Virus record (IMG/VR): IMGVR_UViG_2693429713_000015
Length of the DNA: 34,819 bases
Direction: 5' to 3' (one strand)
Source: a virus
Taxonomy: Duplodnaviria > Heunggongvirae > Uroviricota > Caudoviricetes
The position numbers were made by a program, and so were the translations under genes. Numbering within the stretch: the first letter of the stretch is position 1; the number at the start of each line of letters is the position of its first letter. The notes beneath the pieces are model-generated. The model was not told the origin of the DNA, did no database searches, and worked only from the letters and a program-made list of their open reading frames with translations. Below, piece after piece: positions 2,613 through 11,410 of the stretch.

Positions 2613-3292
2613 CTGGCCTCCAGTTTCTGTTGTTCCTGCCCACTGACCGGGCGGTGCAGTCTGACGTTCTGCCCTTCACGAAACCCCGCATAGCGCGAGG
2701 CGTCGCCATTGCGGCTTCTTCCCGGTTTACGCGCCCTGGTGGTTTGCGTCTGCGGGTATTTATGTTCCAGCCACTGCTGCATCAGTTCACGCTCATCATC
2801 GGTCAGGGCAAAGGACTGTATTTCACTGATAACGGCCAGCACCCAGCCTTCGGCAAACTGGTCTCCACGGCTGGTGCGGGTGGCGGTTTTTATTCTTTTG
2901 TTCTGTGCACTGATATACTGCTGACGCGCCTTTTTCAGCTGACGGGCCAGCACTTCCCAGGTGTATGCAGCCAGTGCCGCACGTTCCCGGTTGCCGTAGA
3001 ACCCCACAGACGGATGCGTGCCGGGGTGAATGATGGAGTTAACACCAAATACCTCGCGGATGATGTTCATCAGGCCCAGCATGTAGCGCGGTGGACGGAG
3101 ACTGCCTGTCGGCCAGTAGTGACTGATGGTTTCATCAATATCACTCATAGCAATGTCGGAATGTGTGATGCCGTGAACATCCATCAGTTTACGGGCTCGG
3201 CACAGTGCCAGAGCGGCCTCGTGCGGGTTGCCGGATGCGGCCAGCGCCAGCAACTTTTTCAGTTTCTCAATGTGTTTATTCTGGTCTGTCAT
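2609..3292 (-). CDS. DUF2786-like early protein
   Basis: Likely start is ATG at 3292 (MTDQNKHIEKLKKLLALAASGNPHEAALALCRARKLM...), overlapping the upstream stop by ATGA; N-terminal helix pair resembles the DUF2786 signature (from memory). Confidence 0.5.
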   Translation of the reverse strand: MTDQNKHIEKLKKLLALAASGNPHEAALALCRARKLMDVHGITHSDIAMSDIDETISHYWPTGSLRPPRYMLGLMNIIREVFGVNSIIHPGTHPSVGFYGNRERAALAAYTWEVLARQLKKARQQYISAQNKRIKTATRTSRGDQFAEGWVLAVISEIQSFALTDDERELMQQWLEHKYPQTQTTRARKPGRSRNGDASRYAGFREGQNVRLHRPVSGQEQQKLEAR

Positions 3293-3504
3293 TGTTCTGT
3301 ATCTCCGGTATTTTTCTGCCGTTTCCATGCCCGGACAGCGTCGGACAGCTCTTTCAGGCTGTATGCTGCTTTAAGCTTTTCCCATAACCACTGTGTTGTT
3401 ATGTGCATCAGCAGGGCAGCCAGGGCTGCCCCCGCACTGAGGCATGTCGCCAGGCCAGTAAGAATCAGTATCCATGCGGTGATTTCCCTGAGTATGTCAG
3501 CCAT
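3289..3504 (-). CDS. Small membrane protein (71 aa), hypothetical
   Basis: Single strong hydrophobic segment ITAWILILTGLATCLSAGAALAALLM. Confidence 0.45.
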   Translation of the reverse strand: MADILREITAWILILTGLATCLSAGAALAALLMHITTQWLWEKLKAAYSLKELSDAVRAWKRQKNTGDTEQ

Positions 3505-3518
3505 TGAATGCCTCCCGG

Positions 3519-3815
3519 TTACTCGTTCGTGTAAATCACGCCCAGTCGTGCAGCCAGACGTTCCAGTTTTTTCTGTTTGTGGAAGTCAATCAGCCGGTCC
3601 ATCCCCTGAAGGCGCAATTGCTCTGTCATGATTTCCACGTCTGCCAGCTCTGCCGCGAGGTCGCTTTCGCTGCCCTGTCCGTTCAGATTGCGGGCAGCAC
3701 TGGCCGCCAGTTCAGCGGCCTCTTCTGTCAGTTTCAGGGCCTGTGCGTCCGGCCCGAAACGCTGCAGGGCCAGACGGTAGAGGGCGGTGCGGGTGAGTAT
3801 GGTGTTCCGTGTCAT
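3519..3815 (-). CDS. MazG-like nucleotide pyrophosphohydrolase-fold protein (98 aa), tentative
   Basis: Contains KLTEEAAELAASA ... DLAAELADVEIMTEQL ... KQKKLERLAARLG, matching the EExxE / ExxD / KxxR arrangement of small MazG domains; eye-match only. Confidence 0.45.
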   Translation of the reverse strand: MTRNTILTRTALYRLALQRFGPDAQALKLTEEAAELAASAARNLNGQGSESDLAAELADVEIMTEQLRLQGMDRLIDFHKQKKLERLAARLGVIYTNE

Positions 3816-3824
3816 GCCGCGCCC

Positions 3825-4097
3825 TCAGTGCTTCCGGCTGACGGTGATGTGCAGGCCGCCTTCTGCAGTGGTTTCCATCCGGTACGGCACCTCATGCGCT
3901 GCCGTGTGGGTTAGTGTGTTCACCAGTACCTGCAGGGCAGCCGCCTTTCCGTTGGTCGCCACAATGGCCTGAGCGGTCATGCTGATTAGCGCCGTCAGGA
4001 CGTGCTTCACATCGGTGAGGTCGCGGCATTCACACTCGTTGACATAGTGTTCAACAAGGGTTCGGGTGCGCTGTCGTGCTTCCTGTGGGGTAATCAT
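3825..4097 (-). CDS. Hypothetical early protein (90 aa)
   Basis: ORF in the operon, overlapping the upstream gene by 4 nt; no recognisable motif. Confidence 0.45.
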   Translation of the reverse strand: MITPQEARQRTRTLVEHYVNECECRDLTDVKHVLTALISMTAQAIVATNGKAAALQVLVNTLTHTAAHEVPYRMETTAEGGLHITVSRKH

Positions 4098-8177: not shown

Positions 8178-8495
8178 TTATCCGATTCTGGCGGCAATTT
8201 TTCTGGCGAGGTCGCACAGTGTTTCGCCATCGCAGGTTTTCACCACGGTATTTACCGGTTGCGGTGCAACTACCGGGCGTAATGCTGACTGATTCTGCAG
8301 ACGTCTTATCTGCTGCATCAGCATCACCTCCATCGTCAGTACAAACGGGTGCGTCTCCTGTGCGGGTACGCAGATTTCACCGGAAGGGGTCACCACGCGG
8401 AAACCCTGCACCATCTCCGGCAGCAGATTACACAGTGCGTGCCCCAGTGCCTCCGGGCTGTCCATCAGGGTATTTTGTGTGTTATTCGTATTCAT
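8178..8495 (-). CDS. Hypothetical early protein (105 aa)
   Basis: ORF within the early operon; no recognised motif. Confidence 0.45.
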   Translation of the reverse strand: MNTNNTQNTLMDSPEALGHALCNLLPEMVQGFRVVTPSGEICVPAQETHPFVLTMEVMLMQQIRRLQNQSALRPVVAPQPVNTVVKTCDGETLCDLARKIAARIG

Positions 8496-9415
8496 TACTG
8501 CATATCCTCCGGTCGGTTGATTTCAGGTTCCGGTTCGGTCAGCCAGGCGGGGGCATCGTTACCCGATGGAGCGGCCTCAAGGTCAAACGTCTCACGTAAT
8601 GCATGAACACTGCGTTCAATCTGGCAGACCAGACCGGCCATGAAATCTCTGGGGGTATCGATCATGTTTTTGGTGCAGTATTCACACAGGGTCTCAAAAA
8701 CACTGGACAGCCGGACGGCGATAGCCGATTCGGCCTCAACCGCTAATGCCGTCACTTCCGCCCGCAATTTTTTCAGTTCTTCGTCTGGCGGCGGAGGTTG
8801 CAGGCGCGATTTCTTCTCCAGTTTTGTGGCCAGTTCGTTGATTTTTTCGTCCTTTCCGGCAAGCACCTGTTGCTGAGCTGCGTTGGTTTCGCGCGCTTCA
8901 CGCAGGGCGGCCTTCAGTTCGCGGCTGGTCATGCGATCAATATCATCAAGCGTTGCACCGGCGACGGTTCCACCATCAGCTAATGCGTCGAGTTCTTCGT
9001 CATCCAGAACCATCAGTTCATATAACTTGGTTTTTCCCAAAACGCTCAGCGCTGAGCGTTTTGGCTGTTCATCTCCATTGCCGAGAAATTTCACGCTGGC
9101 CTGCATCATGCGACGAGCTACCTGTGGTGCTAATCCGAGGTCGTTTTCCAGAATATTTGTGAAATCACCATGCGGTTCATTTTCTTTTAAGATGATCAGC
9201 CGCTTACCCGCTTCCAACATAGATTCAGCACTCTGCGCCATATAAAAACGTGCTTCGTGAACGATGCGTTCACGTTCATAAGGCAGTCCATCACCAAACT
9301 GCTGCATGATCTCCATGCGATGCTGTGTCATGGCATTCAGGCTGACGTTGAGATCATCCGACAGCGGTACATCGGCGTTCAGTTCAGTGTTAATCGGTGA
9401 TTTGGTACGTCCCAT
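8495..9415 (-). CDS. Hypothetical coiled-coil early protein (306 aa)
   Basis: Long ORF with an acidic/coiled-coil central region (ELKAALREARETNAAQQQVLAGKDEKINELATKLEKK); function unknown. Confidence 0.5.
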   Translation of the reverse strand: MGRTKSPINTELNADVPLSDDLNVSLNAMTQHRMEIMQQFGDGLPYERERIVHEARFYMAQSAESMLEAGKRLIILKENEPHGDFTNILENDLGLAPQVARRMMQASVKFLGNGDEQPKRSALSVLGKTKLYELMVLDDEELDALADGGTVAGATLDDIDRMTSRELKAALREARETNAAQQQVLAGKDEKINELATKLEKKSRLQPPPPDEELKKLRAEVTALAVEAESAIAVRLSSVFETLCEYCTKNMIDTPRDFMAGLVCQIERSVHALRETFDLEAAPSGNDAPAWLTEPEPEINRPEDMQ

Positions 9416-9425
9416 TGATTACTCC

Positions 9426-9740
9426 TTACAAACGACTACCTGAAATGACACGTTGGTTAATTTCGTTAATACGATCCTGTGCACGTGCCATCTCGTTACT
9501 GTGGGCCATGGCGATCTGCAGTAACTGGATGCCCGGTGCAAAACGTCCGTTCTCCAGTTTCAGAGCCAGCCCTTCTTCAATGAGGGTGTTGAGTGCCCGG
9601 TTGATGTTTGCCGGTGACTCGTGCAGTGCTGTCGCCAGTTCACCGTTAGAAATACCGTTCAGGGCATGACCGCGCAGCGCTTTGAGTACCCGGAGGATGC
9701 GACTGCCGGAGCTTGAAACATTCGTCTTACTCATCTGCAT
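9426..9740 (-). CDS. Winged-helix DNA-binding protein (104 aa), hypothetical
   Basis: N-terminal ILRVLKAL...GISNGELATAL...INRALNTLIEEGL resembles a winged-helix HTH. Confidence 0.45.
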   Translation of the reverse strand: MQMSKTNVSSSGSRILRVLKALRGHALNGISNGELATALHESPANINRALNTLIEEGLALKLENGRFAPGIQLLQIAMAHSNEMARAQDRINEINQRVISGSRL

Positions 9741-9786
9741 ACCTCTTTTGCGATATGTGATAACCTTTTACAAAGACTCAAAATAT

Positions 9787-9975
9787 TTAGGCCGCCTGAG
9801 CTGTTGATTTCAGTCCCAACTTCACGGCGATTTCATGGGATTTACCGTAACGGGCTTTGGTCTGCCCGTTGAGAACGCGGTATACCTCATTGCGGTTGTA
9901 GCCGTTTTCTTCTGCCCAGCGGGTGAAAGTGATCCCGCGCTGGCGGAAGAGAGCTTTGACTTGTTCTGCAGTCAT
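9787..9975 (-). CDS. Ner-like small DNA-binding protein (first early gene)
   Basis: 62 aa; AAGGAG RBS 6 nt before ATG at 9975; layout parallels Mu Ner; divergent from the repressor. Confidence 0.6.
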   Translation of the reverse strand: MTAEQVKALFRQRGITFTRWAEENGYNRNEVYRVLNGQTKARYGKSHEIAVKLGLKSTAQAA

Positions 9976-10022
9976 CGTTGTCTCCTTTGTTGATGCAATG
10001 ATGTTTGCCTTATATGTGTTAG

Positions 10023-10051
10023 ATTATTGCTCATAATTATGAGCATATCAA
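10023..10051 (-). promoter_or_regulatory. Putative early promoter Pe (minus strand)
   Basis: On the minus strand: -35 TTGATA (plus 10046-10051), 17-bp spacer, -10 AATAAT (plus 10023-10028), about 45 bp upstream of the Ner-like start. Confidence 0.5.
10029..10044. promoter_or_regulatory. Perfect 16-bp palindromic operator GCTCATAATTATGAGC
   Basis: Self-complementary 16-mer fills the spacer of the putative Pe; an extra half-site TTATGAGC recurs at 10067-10074 across the repressor start codon. Confidence 0.6.
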
Positions 10052-10068
10052 GATAGAGATTCACTTTT

Positions 10069-10425
10069 ATGAGCAAAGATATAGGAGAGCGCGTTATTTC
10101 TGTGAGGAAGAAAGCAGGGTTGAACCAGAGAGAATTTGCAGCTCGTTTAGGTATTTCTAATGGTGGTATCAGTCAGATTGAAAATGGAAAGGCGATGCCT
10201 GGAGGGGAGTTTCTGTTAAAGATGCATCAAGAGTTTAATGTTGATGTAAATTGGTTGCTCACTGGAATGAGCACAGATGGTATGACTAGAAACCAGAATC
10301 AAATTTCCCCAGAAAAACAAAAACTAATAGATACTTTTGACGACATGACACCAGACCAACAACGCTCATTTCTTGAGATTGGGCGATTCTATACTCAGCC
10401 AAAACCAGGAAAAATCGCAGGCTGA
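10069..10425 (+). CDS. XRE-family HTH repressor (c-repressor analogue)
   Basis: 118 aa; N-terminal HTH (LNQREFAARLGISNGGISQIENGK); divergent from the early operon; no peptidase domain. Confidence 0.8.
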   Translation: MSKDIGERVISVRKKAGLNQREFAARLGISNGGISQIENGKAMPGGEFLLKMHQEFNVDVNWLLTGMSTDGMTRNQNQISPEKQKLIDTFDDMTPDQQRSFLEIGRFYTQPKPGKIAG

Positions 10426-10510
10426 TACTGACCCGGACACAAAGGACAGGTGGTTGATCTGGATGCTTTCAGAAAACATCGCCAGTGACATAGTGGAAGT
10501 TGTTTGGTTT

Positions 10511-10543
10511 ACCGGAAAGCATTGTGCTTTCCGGTTTTGTTTC
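10511..10543 (+). terminator. Intrinsic terminator downstream of the repressor gene
   Basis: 10-bp stem accggaaagc / gctttccggt, loop attgt, followed by TTTGTTTC. Confidence 0.6.
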
Positions 10544-11306
10544 AGAAGTTGCAGATTAGCAGTTCACGGCGCGGCGTGGGTTTACCCGCCAGACTGTAGT
10601 TGATATTCACTGTCTGTATGTTCAGTCCAGTGAACACCTCGCGCATCTGCGGGATGTCGTTCACCGAAATTATCATTTTTCCTCTGATGCACCGGGCCAG
10701 CTCTGCCAGCCGCGAGTAGTTCCCTTCAGGAAAATCCACACCATAGCCTTCCGTACCCAGGTACGGTGGGTCGCAGTAGAACAGCGTGTGCGGACGATCA
10801 TAACGCTCAATGCACTGTTGCCAGTCCATGTGTTCTATGACTGTTCTGGAAAGCCGCAGGTGTGCCGCTGACAGTTCTTCTTCAATACGTAGCAGGTTGA
10901 AGCGTGGCGGGGATGTGGTGGAGGTACCGAAGCTGTGCTCTGCCACCTTGCCGCCAAACGCCTGCTTCTGAAGGTAGTAGAACCGTGCCGCACGCTGGAT
11001 ATCCGTCAGTGTTTCTTCCGGGGTGATCTGCAGCCATTTGTAGATCTGACGGCTGACCAGCGCCCATTTGAACTGGCGGACAAATTCTTCCAGGTGATGC
11101 TTTACCACCCGGTACAGATTCACCAGTTCACCGTTGATATCATTGATGACTTCGATCTTGCCGGGTGTCTTAAGAAAATAGAGCGCTGCTGCCCCACAAA
11201 ACGGCTCCACATAACATTCATGCGCCGGAAACAGCGGCAGAATGTGTTTTGCAAGGCGGCGTTTGCCACCAATCCACGGCACGATGGGTAATGTCTGCAT
11301 TTTCAT
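10542..11306 (-). CDS. Dam-family (D12 class) N6-adenine DNA methyltransferase
   Basis: DPPY catalytic motif; N-terminal VPWIGGKRRL AdoMet-binding-like motif; likely start is ATG at 11306 (MKMQTLP...) rather than the ORF-track start at 11396. Confidence 0.8.
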   Translation of the reverse strand: MKMQTLPIVPWIGGKRRLAKHILPLFPAHECYVEPFCGAAALYFLKTPGKIEVINDINGELVNLYRVVKHHLEEFVRQFKWALVSRQIYKWLQITPEETLTDIQRAARFYYLQKQAFGGKVAEHSFGTSTTSPPRFNLLRIEEELSAAHLRLSRTVIEHMDWQQCIERYDRPHTLFYCDPPYLGTEGYGVDFPEGNYSRLAELARCIRGKMIISVNDIPQMREVFTGLNIQTVNINYSLAGKPTPRRELLICNF

Positions 11307-11410
11307 AATCTGCAAGCCTTTTACAATTATTAAAAAATATGGCAGTCTGGTCAGGTCTCGCGAGACTGACTGAACCTTGGTCGGCTCACAGCGCATTCCT
11401 GTGGGGCGAT

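What the first reader, a model, noticed from the sequence alone, without database searches (positions are those of the whole stretch)
9976..10074. Perfect 16-bp palindromic operator positioned exactly in the spacer of the early promoter
GCTCATAATTATGAGC (10029-10044) lies between a minus-strand -35 (TTGATA) and -10 (AATAAT) with 17-bp spacing, so a dimeric repressor bound there would block the early promoter. A further half-site TTATGAGC overlaps the repressor's own start codon, suggesting autoregulation. This gives a clean, testable model of the lysogeny switch.
Basis: seen in the sequence. Interest (0 to 1): 0.5.

Follow-up and report, generated by a model that had tools for sequence, protein, structure and literature searches.

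The report
Prophage repressor operators at early promoter
The palindrome is very probably the main binding site through which a Mu-like E. coli prophage's own repressor shuts off its early (lytic) promoter; this is a classical phage switch, described here in more detail than before but not a new kind of mechanism.

Summary
The perfect palindrome is in fact 18 bp (TGCTCATAATTATGAGCA, 10028-10045). It fills the 17-bp spacer of TTGATA/AATAAT, the only 10-of-12 sigma-70 match in the whole window.

The window is a BcepMu/B3-type transposable prophage, 100% identical to phage PhiKM and present in about 390 of 5426 complete E. coli genomes. The promoter heads the ner-like/transposase/Mor early operon.

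Comparison supports the operator reading. Relatives whose repressor is only 57-67% identical but keeps the same helix-turn-helix keep TGCTCA-N6-TGAGCA, while the centre and flanks drift. Twelve other immunity types examined (six in E. coli, six in Pseudomonas or Burkholderia phages) each carry a different site at the same position, plus a second site about 30 bp away over the repressor start codon.

A third perfect consensus site, O3 (10256-10273), lies inside the repressor gene and is conserved at synonymous positions.

The repressor has no autocleavage domain and looks SinR-like. Binding, the repressor's own promoter and looping are untested. This is a new, well-resolved member of a known kind.

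The parts
10028..10045 (.). O1: primary operator, a perfect 18-bp palindrome TGCTCATAATTATGAGCA (half-sites TGCTCA/TGAGCA, 6-bp AT-rich centre)
   Evidence: Sequence. The half-sites are kept with 0 mismatches in relatives whose repressor is 57-67% identical, while the centre varies. Heteroimmune relatives carry other sites at the same position.
10046..10051 (-). -35 hexamer TTGATA of the early promoter Pe
   Evidence: it belongs to the only match of at least 10/12 in the window. Every immunity type examined has its own TTGxxx hexamer directly abutting its O1.
10023..10028 (-). -10 hexamer AATAAT of Pe; 17-bp spacer; the transcription start inferred near 10015-10017 is not mapped
   Evidence: The -10 lies in the block TAGATTAT, which is conserved in all E. 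coli immunity types.
10058..10075 (.). O2: weaker second operator GATTCACTTTTATGAGCA. The right half-site is perfect and the left keeps only TCA. It is 30 bp centre-to-centre from O1 and covers the ribosome-binding region and codons 1-3 of the repressor.
   Evidence: The same arrangement, a second site 29-34 bp away over the start codon, is seen in 11 of 12 immunity types. The half-site is kept even where the start codon is GTG. Codon 2, AGC, is invariant in 5 lineages.
10256..10273 (.). O3: third operator TGCTCACTGGAATGAGCA inside the repressor gene (codons 63-68, LLTGMS), 228 bp from O1
   Evidence: Zero-mismatch hit. It is kept at gene position +187 in six diverged lineages, through Met->Val and Thr->Ser changes. 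The six-fold-degenerate codons inside half-sites are invariant in 3 of 3 cases, against 0 of 10 elsewhere. Candidate analogous intragenic sites occur in three heteroimmune types.
10069..10425 (+). Immunity repressor gene, 118 aa: an N-terminal XRE/434-type helix-turn-helix (residues about 5-65), a linker, and a C-terminal two-helix module (81-109). No S24 peptidase domain.
   Evidence: Pfam HTH_3 scores 55.8 bits. The best solved-structure matches are a designed DNA-binding protein (8tac, 7e-9) and 434 repressor variants, with wild-type 434 at 3e-8. Full-length homology to Fc02 RepC, 31% identity, E 2e-20. AlphaFold2 model and SinR as the top fold match.
9787..9975 (-). First gene of the early operon: a Ner-like DNA-binding protein of the BcepMu gp16 family
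   Evidence: NCBIfam TIGR04111 scores 97.4 bits against a cut-off of 34. 71% identical to phage B3 ORF17.
9976..10027 (.). Conserved leader and left half of the control region: the ner 5' UTR with its Shine-Dalgarno AAGGAGA. It is shared by all E. coli immunity types and is a possible binding region for the Ner-like protein (inferred only).
   Evidence: Identity profiles and the alignment of intergenic regions.
10017..10025 (+). Candidate extended -10 (TGtTAGATT) for a rightward repressor promoter overlapping Pe; speculative
   Evidence: Present in all E. coli types, but these share the block by recent descent. The tool scan reported no plus-strand promoter match in 9400-10068. The B3/Fc02 literature predicts overlapping pC2/pE (PMC9936078).
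10028..10320 (.). Exchangeable immunity cassette: O1, the -35, O2, the helix-turn-helix coding part and O3
   Evidence: Against strain 83972 the flanks are 93-100% identical in every 30-bp bin but one (90%), up to 10020 and again from about 10440. Positions 10021-10320 are at 40-56% and 10321-10410 at 63-66%. BLAST homology of the heteroimmune prophages stops at window 10027.
10511..10535 (+). Strong hairpin with a T-run: the likely terminator of the repressor transcription unit, lying between the convergent repressor and methylase genes
   Evidence: and (-17.1 kcal/mol, z -5.5).

Best explanation
The region is the immunity switch of a BcepMu/B3-type transposable prophage.

Proposed mechanism. 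A small XRE-type repressor (118 aa, 10069-10425) binds as a symmetric dimer to TGCTCA-N6-TGAGCA. The strongest site, O1 (10028-10045), fills the 17-bp spacer between the -35 and -10 of the leftward early promoter Pe. Bound repressor should therefore exclude RNA polymerase and keep the ner-like, transposase, ATPase and Mor early operon silent in the lysogen.

A weaker site, O2, lies 30 bp away (about three helical turns, so on the same face) over the repressor's ribosome-binding site and start codon. A third consensus site, O3, lies 228 bp away inside the repressor gene. I infer that O2 and O3 stabilise occupancy of O1, by pairwise cooperativity and possibly looping through the C-terminal two-helix domain. 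I also infer that they limit the repressor's own expression, because any rightward transcript must cross O1 and O2.

Shown by sequence and comparison: the sites, their positions, their conservation with the helix-turn-helix, and their replacement in heteroimmune phages.

Shown experimentally only in a homologue (Fc02): the divergent gene is the maintenance repressor, and pE fires at ner on derepression.

Inferred: dimer binding, polymerase exclusion, cooperativity or looping, and autoregulation.
For: 1. Geometry. O1 exactly fills the spacer of the only sigma-70 match of at least 10/12 in 34.8 kb.

2. Context. The gene order is ner-like, IclR-type HTH, DUF3102, transposase, AAA ATPase, Gam and Mor, all on the minus strand downstream of the promoter. 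The window is 100% identical to phage PhiKM, classified as Bcepmuvirus.

3. Co-conservation.
- Loci L040-L044, L016 and L049/50 have repressors 57-67% identical overall, but with helices 2-3 nearly unchanged.
- They keep O1, O2 and O3 half-sites with 0 mismatches while the centre N6, the -35 and the flanks change.
- In L051/52 the same helix-turn-helix sits in a different, Rha-containing phage. It again has a perfect 18-bp TGCTCATTTAAATGAGCA abutting a TTGACT -35.

4. Co-variation.
- Six heteroimmune E. coli prophages and six Pseudomonas or Burkholderia relatives (B3, JBD25, Fc02, PM105, vB_E427, BcepMu) each have a different site at this position.
- Each also has a second copy 29-34 bp away over the repressor start, except LR-31 where it is 20 bp away.
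- The best 18-bp palindrome of the intergenic region falls at the same place in 10 of 13 types. In the other three (83972, BcepMu, PM105) O1 is only weakly symmetric and was recognised from its O2 copy.

5. Specificity partner. Strain 83972 has an identical Ner-like protein (WP_000123378.1) and a transposase 93% identical over its first 70 residues, yet a different operator and repressor.

6. Synonymous-site constraint. Codons S2, L64 and S68, which lie inside half-sites, are invariant in five lineages. None of the 10 other six-fold-degenerate codons is.

7. Homology. Full-length similarity to Fc02 RepC. Temperature-sensitive alleles of RepC induce that prophage, and RNA-seq shows pE firing at ner (PMC9936078).

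8. Fold. The DNA-binding domain resembles the 434 and P22 c2 repressors, which bind operators of 14-18 bp as dimers (the operator lengths are my own knowledge).
Against: - There is no binding, footprint or transcription-start data for this phage.
- The promoter is a consensus match only.
- The repressor's own promoter was not found. The tool scan reported no plus-strand promoter match in 9400-10068, so the autoregulation mechanism is unclear.
- In Fc02 the lysogenic repressor transcript comes mainly from a distal promoter.
- O1-O3 distances in the types that have an intragenic site (176, 191, 228, 259 bp) show no common helical phase, and three E. coli types show no O3 at up to 2 mismatches. 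Looping is therefore conjecture.
- Oligomeric state is inferred only from site symmetry and a monomer model.
- Several relatives share the left flank by recent descent, so conservation of the -10 block is not independent evidence.
Confidence: 0.85

Rival explanations
1. The palindrome is the site of the Ner-like (BcepMu gp16) protein, the Cro analogue, rather than of the repressor, or it is shared by both as in lambda.
For: Ner and Cro proteins of Mu and lambda act in the divergent promoter region (my own knowledge). The gp16-family gene lies immediately downstream of the promoter.
Against: Strain 83972 encodes the identical Ner-like protein (WP_000123378.1) but has a completely different sequence at this position. 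The palindrome follows the repressor's helix-turn-helix instead, including into a phage that lacks a gp16 gene. The conserved block 9976-10027 is a better candidate for Ner binding.
Confidence: 0.03
2. It is a chance palindrome in AT-rich promoter DNA with no specific ligand.
For: About 0.57 perfect palindromes of 16 bp or more are expected per window of this size. AT-rich spacers are prone to self-complementarity.
Against: The local shuffle P is 0.0003. There are two further copies of the half-sites nearby. Half-sites are retained with zero mismatches across 57-67% protein divergence, while type-specific sites occupy the same place in 12 other immunity types.
Confidence: 0.02
3. The palindrome acts as an RNA or DNA hairpin (terminator, processing site or cruciform) rather than as a protein-binding site.
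For: As RNA it folds into a 7-bp stem, -9.2 kcal/mol, z -3.3.
Against: No U-run follows it. It lies upstream of the predicted Pe start, so it is absent from the early transcript. O2 has only one good half-site and cannot form a hairpin, yet it is conserved. Stem-centre bases vary freely while the outer 6 bp are fixed, which is the pattern of a protein-contacted operator and not of a stem. No Rfam family matched.
Confidence: 0.03
4. The 118-aa protein is a controller (C) protein, or an antitoxin, serving the neighbouring DNA adenine methylase, and the palindrome is its C-box.
For: A D12-class methylase lies 117 bp downstream. C.AhdI and C.BclI, and HigA and HipB, appear among the structural neighbours of the HTH domain.
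Against: The methylase is convergent, not co-transcribed, and there is no endonuclease or toxin gene. Heteroimmune relatives with the same architecture (IAI39, AF22, OkiPb01694) have other genes at that position. The homologous Fc02 gene is a proven lysogeny repressor.
Confidence: 0.02
5. As in phage Mu, the operator region doubles as the transposition enhancer bound by the transposase N-terminal domain.
For: In Mu, O1-O2 overlap the internal activation sequence, and MuA domain I-alpha is homologous to the repressor's DNA-binding domain (my own knowledge).
Against: There is no similarity between the repressor and the transposase. The first 70 residues of the transposase are 93% identical in heteroimmune prophages whose operators differ completely.
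Confidence: 0.03

Closest known systems
Phage 434 and P22 c2 repressor-operator systems
   Same: The XRE-type five-helix DNA-binding domain is the best or near-best sequence and fold match: 434 repressor at 3e-8, and P22 c2 at rmsd 1.2-1.4 A over 65 residues. The operator is symmetric, with conserved outer half-sites and a variable, presumably uncontacted centre. There are multiple operators of graded quality at divergent promoters.
   Different: There is no C-terminal S24 autocleavage domain, so RecA-mediated cleavage is unlikely. The primary operator sits in the promoter spacer rather than over the -10 or -35. One operator lies inside the repressor gene. The phage is transposable, not lambdoid.
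Pseudomonas phages B3 and Fc02 (Beetrevirus): RepC repressor, ner-like gene, overlapping pE/pC2 promoters (PMC9936078; Braid et al. 2004 as cited there)
   Same: The repressor is homologous over its full length (31% identity, E 2e-20) and the Ner-like protein is homologous (59-71% identity). The divergent arrangement is the same. I find the same O1-in-spacer plus O2-over-start layout in B3 and Fc02. Fc02 supplies the experimental basis: temperature-sensitive repressor mutants, and a pE burst at ner.
   Different: The operator sequences differ (Fc02 has TGGGAC-N6-GTCCCA). The papers I could read describe promoters but no operators. No intragenic O3 was found in those phages at up to 2 mismatches.
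Phage Mu and D108 c repressor, O1-O2-O3 and Ner
   Same: A transposable phage in which a repressor gene diverges from a ner-A-B early operon. There are three operators, a small second DNA-binding protein is encoded first in the early operon, and heteroimmune relatives differ in this module.
   Different: The repressor belongs to a different fold family and is unrelated to the transposase N-terminus. The immunity region lies about 10 kb inside the genome with the early operon reading leftward, which is the BcepMu layout. The sites are palindromic rather than the Mu-type repeats (my own knowledge).
SinR/SinI, and the SinR-like repressors of arbitrium (SPbeta-like) phages with the small antirepressor AimX (PDB 1b0n, 9sf2, 9iaq)
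   Same: An N-terminal XRE helix-turn-helix plus a short C-terminal two-helix module. SinR is the top Foldseek hit over 110 columns, and a phmmer hit covers residues 5-106. There is no protease domain.
   Different: Tetramerisation and antirepressor control are untested here. No SinI-like paralogue of the C-terminal module was detected in the window. The host is Gram-negative and the phage is Mu-like.
Operators placed between the -35 and -10, for example P22 Arc at Pant; and auxiliary operators inside coding regions, for example TP901-1 CI site OD and lac O2 (all from my own knowledge)
   Same: Repression by occupying the spacer, and a distant auxiliary site within a gene that could support looping.
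   Different: The proteins are unrelated. The resemblance is functional only.

Membership tests
XRE / Cro-CI type helix-turn-helix regulators (Pfam HTH_3, PF01381) | Profile match above the curated gathering score | tested here: met
   55.8 bits against a cut-off of 23, residues 12-63. Fold rmsd 1.2-1.4 A to the P22 c2 N-terminal domain.
LexA / lambda CI type autocleavable repressors | C-terminal S24 peptidase domain with a Ser-Lys dyad | tested here: not met
   No Peptidase_S24 hit. The protein is only 118 aa, and the C-terminus is modelled as two short helices.
SinR-like repressors (helix-turn-helix plus helical-hook multimerisation domain) | C-terminal two-helix hook homologous to that of SinR | tested here: inconclusive
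   phmmer aligns residues 5-106 to SinR 2-103 at E 2.7e-4. Foldseek's top hit is 1b0n_A over 110 columns at E 3.2e-4, but the rmsd is 13.6 A because domain orientation differs. The model has helices 81-92 and 95-109 with pLDDT about 80.
SinR-like repressors (helix-turn-helix plus helical-hook multimerisation domain) | Tetramer formation, and inactivation by a small hook-containing antirepressor | not testable with these tools
   A tblastn search for a paralogue of the C-terminal module in the window found nothing above chance.
BcepMu gp16 family (NCBIfam TIGR04111), for the ner-like gene 9787-9975 | Profile match above the curated cut-off | tested here: met
   97.4 bits against a cut-off of 34. 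PHROG 925 at 3.8e-33.
BcepMu/B3-type transposable phage immunity region | A repressor gene divergent from a gp16/ner-like gene that heads a leftward operon with a DDE transposase, an AAA ATPase and Mor; lysis and structural genes lie to the right | tested here: met
   ORF map and Pfam hits. RefSeq and GenBank annotation of identical DNA. The BcepMu, B3, KS10 and Fc02 layouts.
Phage Mu c-repressor / operator-enhancer system | The repressor's DNA-binding domain is homologous to the transposase N-terminal domain, which binds the same region | tested here: not met
   BLASTP of repressor against transposase gives E 21. The first 70 residues of the transposase are 93% identical across heteroimmune prophages.
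Restriction-modification controller (C) protein with C-box | The C gene is co-oriented and co-transcribed with an endonuclease gene, and the C-box lies upstream of that operon | tested here: not met
   There is no endonuclease gene. The only neighbour is a convergent orphan D12 methylase, which is absent at that position in the IAI39, AF22 and OkiPb01694 relatives.
Repressor operator (functional class) | Sequence-specific binding by the cognate repressor, with repression of the overlapping promoter | not testable with these tools
   Only indirect evidence: co-conservation and co-variation with the helix-turn-helix and experiments on the Fc02 homologue.

The most novel reading that the evidence does not exclude
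The repressor is a SinR-like tetramer that bridges O1/O2 to the intragenic O3, looping out about 200 bp that encode its own DNA-binding domain. All three operators and the helix-turn-helix would then form one self-contained, exchangeable immunity cassette (10028 to about 10320). The C-terminal hook is shared by heteroimmune prophages and is even fused to an unrelated AlpA-type N-terminal domain. In this reading it is the common target of a so-far unidentified small antirepressor, which would induce these SOS-independent prophages across immunity types.
Probability: 0.2. Interest if true: 0.55.

Novelty: new member of a known kind. Interest (0 to 1): 0.38.

Why it matters
This prophage sits in roughly 7% of complete E. 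coli genomes (391 of 5426 at 99% identity or more). At least one of those records is labelled O25b:H4-ST131, and many come from human clinical isolates.

Knowing its operators, and that the repressor lacks an autocleavage domain, gives a concrete handle for asking what induces it. It also allows virulent or non-inducible derivatives to be built, and superinfection immunity between the many heteroimmune variants to be predicted from sequence alone.

More generally, the comparison defines a common control-region layout for BcepMu/B3-type transposable phages. The layout is an operator in the Pe spacer, a second operator over the repressor start codon, and often a third inside the gene. None of the papers I could search describes it.

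It remains a classical repressor-operator switch, so the conceptual gain is modest.

Tried and rejected
- Exact 18-mer search of 596 Gb of species-representative genomes. It gave 18 hits. The one I inspected (Symbiopectobacterium, L016) is a homologous prophage. The other 17 lie in unrelated taxa and were not inspected. My own estimate of the chance level is about 9, so the palindrome is not a dispersed repeat.
- Rfam search of the whole window: no family matched.
- Search for the repressor's own promoter. The tool scan reported no plus-strand match in 9400-10068. The CATAAT inside O1 is not conserved in same-immunity relatives. The extended -10 TGnTAGATT is conserved only among recently related E. 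coli prophages and is not evident in B3, BcepMu or PM105. The promoter is left unresolved.
- Search for a SinI-like antirepressor paralogue of the C-terminal module in the window: nothing above chance.
- Helical phasing of O1-O3. The distances (176, 191, 228 and 259 bp) show no common phase.
- Ner binding site. A GCAA-N6-TTGC motif at 9995-10008 is not consistently present in distant relatives. Not pursued.
- Literature. Searches for PhiKM, BcepMu plus operator, Bcepmuvirus plus E. coli, ST131 prophages, and B3-like plus operator found no description of these operators. The B3 genome paper (Braid 2004) is not held, and I did not try to fetch the BcepMu paper (Summer 2004).
- The site 10619-10636 (TGTTCAGTCCAGTGAACA, two symmetric mismatches) is within chance expectation for up to 2 mismatches (about 1.3 per window, my estimate). 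The diverged relatives L040-L044 show no site with up to 2 mismatches in the equivalent downstream stretch. It is not counted as an operator.
Full report
**What is there**

- GCTCATAATTATGAGC lies at 10029-10044. The perfect symmetry is actually 18 bp: TGCTCATAATTATGAGCA, 10028-10045.
- On the minus strand, TTGATA (10051-10046) and AATAAT (10028-10023) are separated by exactly 17 bp. The palindrome therefore fills the spacer.
- The promoter scan lists this as the best site of the region, at 10/12. My own scan of both strands of the whole 34.8-kb window finds no other site at 10/12 or better.
- TTATGAGC recurs at 10067-10074, over the ATG at 10069.

A perfect palindrome of 16 bp or more is not rare in a window this size. 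About 0.57 are expected and two are observed. Significance comes from position, from repetition and from comparison with relatives.

**Context**

- The window is 100% identical to Escherichia phage PhiKM (PQ738613, genus Bcepmuvirus).
- It is also at least 99% identical to a prophage in 391 of 5426 complete E. coli genomes.
- Leftward from the promoter lie a BcepMu-gp16-family (Ner-like) gene, an IclR-type HTH gene, a DUF3102 gene, a DDE transposase, an AAA ATPase, gam and mor. Lysis and structural genes lie to the right.
- The divergent 118-aa gene (10069-10425) encodes an XRE-type helix-turn-helix protein with no S24 peptidase domain.
- This is the layout of BcepMu, B3, KS10 and Fc02.

**Comparative test 1: co-variation**

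BLAST homology of many E. coli relatives stops at window position 10027, the left edge of the palindrome.

Against strain 83972 the identity profile is as follows:

| Window positions | Identity to 83972 (30-bp bins) |
|---|---|
| up to 10020 | 93-100%, one bin at 90% |
| 10021-10320 | 40-56% |
| 10321-10410 | 63-66% |
| from about 10440 | 93-100% |

Each of six heteroimmune E. coli prophages has a different site at the same place, filling a 16-17 bp spacer between the conserved -10 and a type-specific -35:

| Strain | Site at the O1 position |
|---|---|
| LR-31 | TATCCCAATAATGGGATA |
| NRZ14408 | TATACACAAATGTGTATA |
| AF22 | TGTCTAAAAAATTAGACA |
| IAI39 | ATGAGAACTATTGTTCTCAT |
| OkiPb01694 | GGTAGAAAATTTTCAACC |
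| 83972 | GTGCAGATTACCTCAC |

- The same holds in B3, JBD25, Fc02, PM105, vB_E427 and BcepMu, mostly with a perfect TTGACA -35 abutting the site.
- In 10 of 13 types, the best 18-bp palindrome of the whole intergenic region falls 20-35 bp before the repressor start. In 83972, BcepMu and PM105 the O1 site is only weakly symmetric and was recognised from its second copy.
- In 11 of 12 types a second, weaker copy lies 29-34 bp to the right, over the repressor's ribosome-binding site and start codon.
- In the window this second copy is GATTCACTTTTATGAGCA (10058-10075).

**Comparative test 2: co-conservation**

- Prophages from Klebsiella, Citrobacter, Serratia, Pluralibacter and Symbiopectobacterium have repressors only 57-67% identical. 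Their helices 2-3 are nearly unchanged (GLNQRDFAARLGISNGGISQIE).
- They keep TGCTCA-N6-TGAGCA with zero mismatches, while the central six bases, the -35 and the flanks vary.
- The same helix-turn-helix in a quite different, Rha-containing phage again has a perfect TGCTCATTTAAATGAGCA next to a TTGACT -35. Its O2 half-site overlaps a GTG start codon.

The recognised element is therefore TGCTCA-N6-TGAGCA with a free centre. This resembles the 434 operator, and wild-type 434 repressor is among the closest solved sequence relatives at 3e-8.

**A third operator**

The consensus has one more zero-mismatch hit in the window: 10256-10273, inside the repressor gene at codons 63-68. About 0.002 such hits are expected by my 4^-12 estimate.

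- The site is kept at the same gene position in all six diverged same-immunity lineages, through Met->Val and Thr->Ser changes.
- Of 48 invariant degenerate codons, only 8 use the same codon in all five lineages compared.
- The three six-fold-degenerate codons that lie in half-sites (S2, L64, S68) are all invariant. None of the ten other six-fold codons is. By my own hand calculation, Fisher's exact P is about 0.0035 (counts).
- NRZ14408 and OkiPb01694 each have an intragenic copy of their own operator with 2 mismatches out of 16, which I estimate at about 0.002 expected per locus.
- Strain 83972 has a weaker candidate, within chance on its own count (about 0.8 expected), although its half-sites form a perfect inverted repeat. 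LR-31, AF22 and IAI39 show none.

**Whose site is it?**

- Strain 83972 encodes the identical Ner-like protein and a transposase 93% identical over its first 70 residues, yet has a different operator and repressor.
- The repressor shows no similarity to the transposase.
- The methylase next door is convergent, and other genes replace it at that position in several relatives.

These facts exclude Ner, a Mu-style enhancer and a restriction-modification controller box as explanations.

**Experimental anchor**

The window protein is homologous over its full length to Fc02 RepC (31% identity, E 2e-20). In Fc02:

- Temperature-sensitive repc alleles make the prophage thermo-inducible.
- RNA-seq shows a burst of leftward transcription starting at ner.
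- The lysogenic repressor transcript comes mainly from a distal promoter, pC1, and a proximal pC2 overlaps pE (PMC9936078).

That paper describes no operators. I find TGGGACATCAAAGTCCCA in the Fc02 pE spacer, and a half-site at the repc start.

**Repressor architecture**

- AlphaFold2 (mean pLDDT 80) gives a five-helix HTH domain at residues 5-65, a disordered linker, and two helices at 81-92 and 95-109.
- Foldseek's top hit is SinR (1b0n_A) over the full length. Arbitrium-phage repressor/AimX complexes are also listed. phmmer aligns residues 5-106 to SinR.
- The C-terminal module is nearly identical among heteroimmune E. coli types and is even fused to an AlpA-annotated N-terminal domain.
- No SinI-like paralogue is present in the window.

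**Mechanism**

Shown by sequence: three sites, with O1 in the Pe spacer, all linked to the helix-turn-helix.

Inferred:
- Dimer binding at O1 excludes RNA polymerase from Pe.
- O2, 30 bp away (about three helical turns), and O3 add cooperativity or looping.
- Because the only DNA between the Pe -35 and the repressor start codon is the ribosome-binding site, any repressor transcript must cross O1 and O2. This would give negative autoregulation.

The repressor promoter itself was not located.

**Novelty**

This is a classical repressor-operator switch. I found no prior description of these operators, though my access to the literature was limited. I rate it a new member of a known kind and of moderate interest.

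Noticed in passing
window 9037-9064 (inside the DUF3102 gene 8495-9415, minus strand): This is the longest perfect palindrome of the window: 28 bp, CCAAAACGCTCAGCGCTGAGCGTTTTGG. In three heteroimmune relatives (83972, IAI39, OkiPb01694) it is kept as a 13/14 palindrome through compensatory changes on both arms, even though the encoded peptide changes. As RNA it folds at -19 kcal/mol on either strand, flanked by A4 and T4. It could be a bidirectional attenuator or terminator inside the early operon, or a protein-binding site. It does not follow the immunity type.
   Followed up: partly
window 10300-10425 (repressor residues about 78-118); proteins P0018, P0020, P0023: The C-terminal 40 residues of the repressor (SPEKQKLIDTFDDMTPDQQRSFLEIGRFYTQPKPGKIAG) are nearly identical in prophages whose N-terminal DNA-binding domains and operators are unrelated. 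One of these is annotated as AlpA family. The pattern indicates domain shuffling and a shared function, such as multimerisation or a common inducer target.
   Followed up: partly
loci L051 and L052 (metagenome contigs): The same helix-turn-helix and the TGCTCA-N6-TGAGCA operator pair occur in a phage that is not Mu-like: its neighbours are an 80-aa gene and a Rha-family gene. There the repressor carries an Fc02-like C-terminus, starts at GTG, and has no O3. The helix-turn-helix and its operators move between phage types as a module.
   Followed up: partly
window 10619-10636 (3' end of the methylase gene 10542-11396, minus strand): TGTTCAGTCCAGTGAACA resembles the operator but has two symmetric mismatches. 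This is within chance expectation, and the diverged same-immunity relatives L040-L044 show no site with up to 2 mismatches in the equivalent downstream stretch. It is probably not functional.
   Followed up: partly
window 10069-10425; PQ738613.1 29435-29791: The GenBank record of phage PhiKM does not annotate the repressor gene at all. Instead it carries a 41-aa minus-strand 'hypothetical protein' at window 10366-10491, which is very likely spurious. RefSeq E. coli genomes annotate the 118-aa protein as WP_000031013.1.
   Followed up: yes
window 10511-10535: An 11-bp GC-rich hairpin followed by a T-run (-17.1 kcal/mol, z -5.5) lies between the convergent repressor and DNA adenine methylase genes. 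It is the likely terminator of the repressor transcript. I have not checked whether it could also stop methylase read-through from entering the immunity region antisense.
   Followed up: no
locus L002 (E. coli AR_0067), 3258-4064; window about 1000-1763: In the chromosome, the Mor end of the prophage abuts a truncated site-specific integrase pseudogene next to tcyJ. The transposable prophage therefore appears to have landed in or beside the remnant of an older element.
   Followed up: no
window 9976-10027: The ner leader is conserved across all E. coli immunity types and partly in B3 and PM105 (…ATGCAAnGATGTT…). It contains GCAA-N6-TTGC at 9995-10008 and is a candidate binding region for the Ner-like protein. 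The motif is not consistent in distant relatives.
   Followed up: partly
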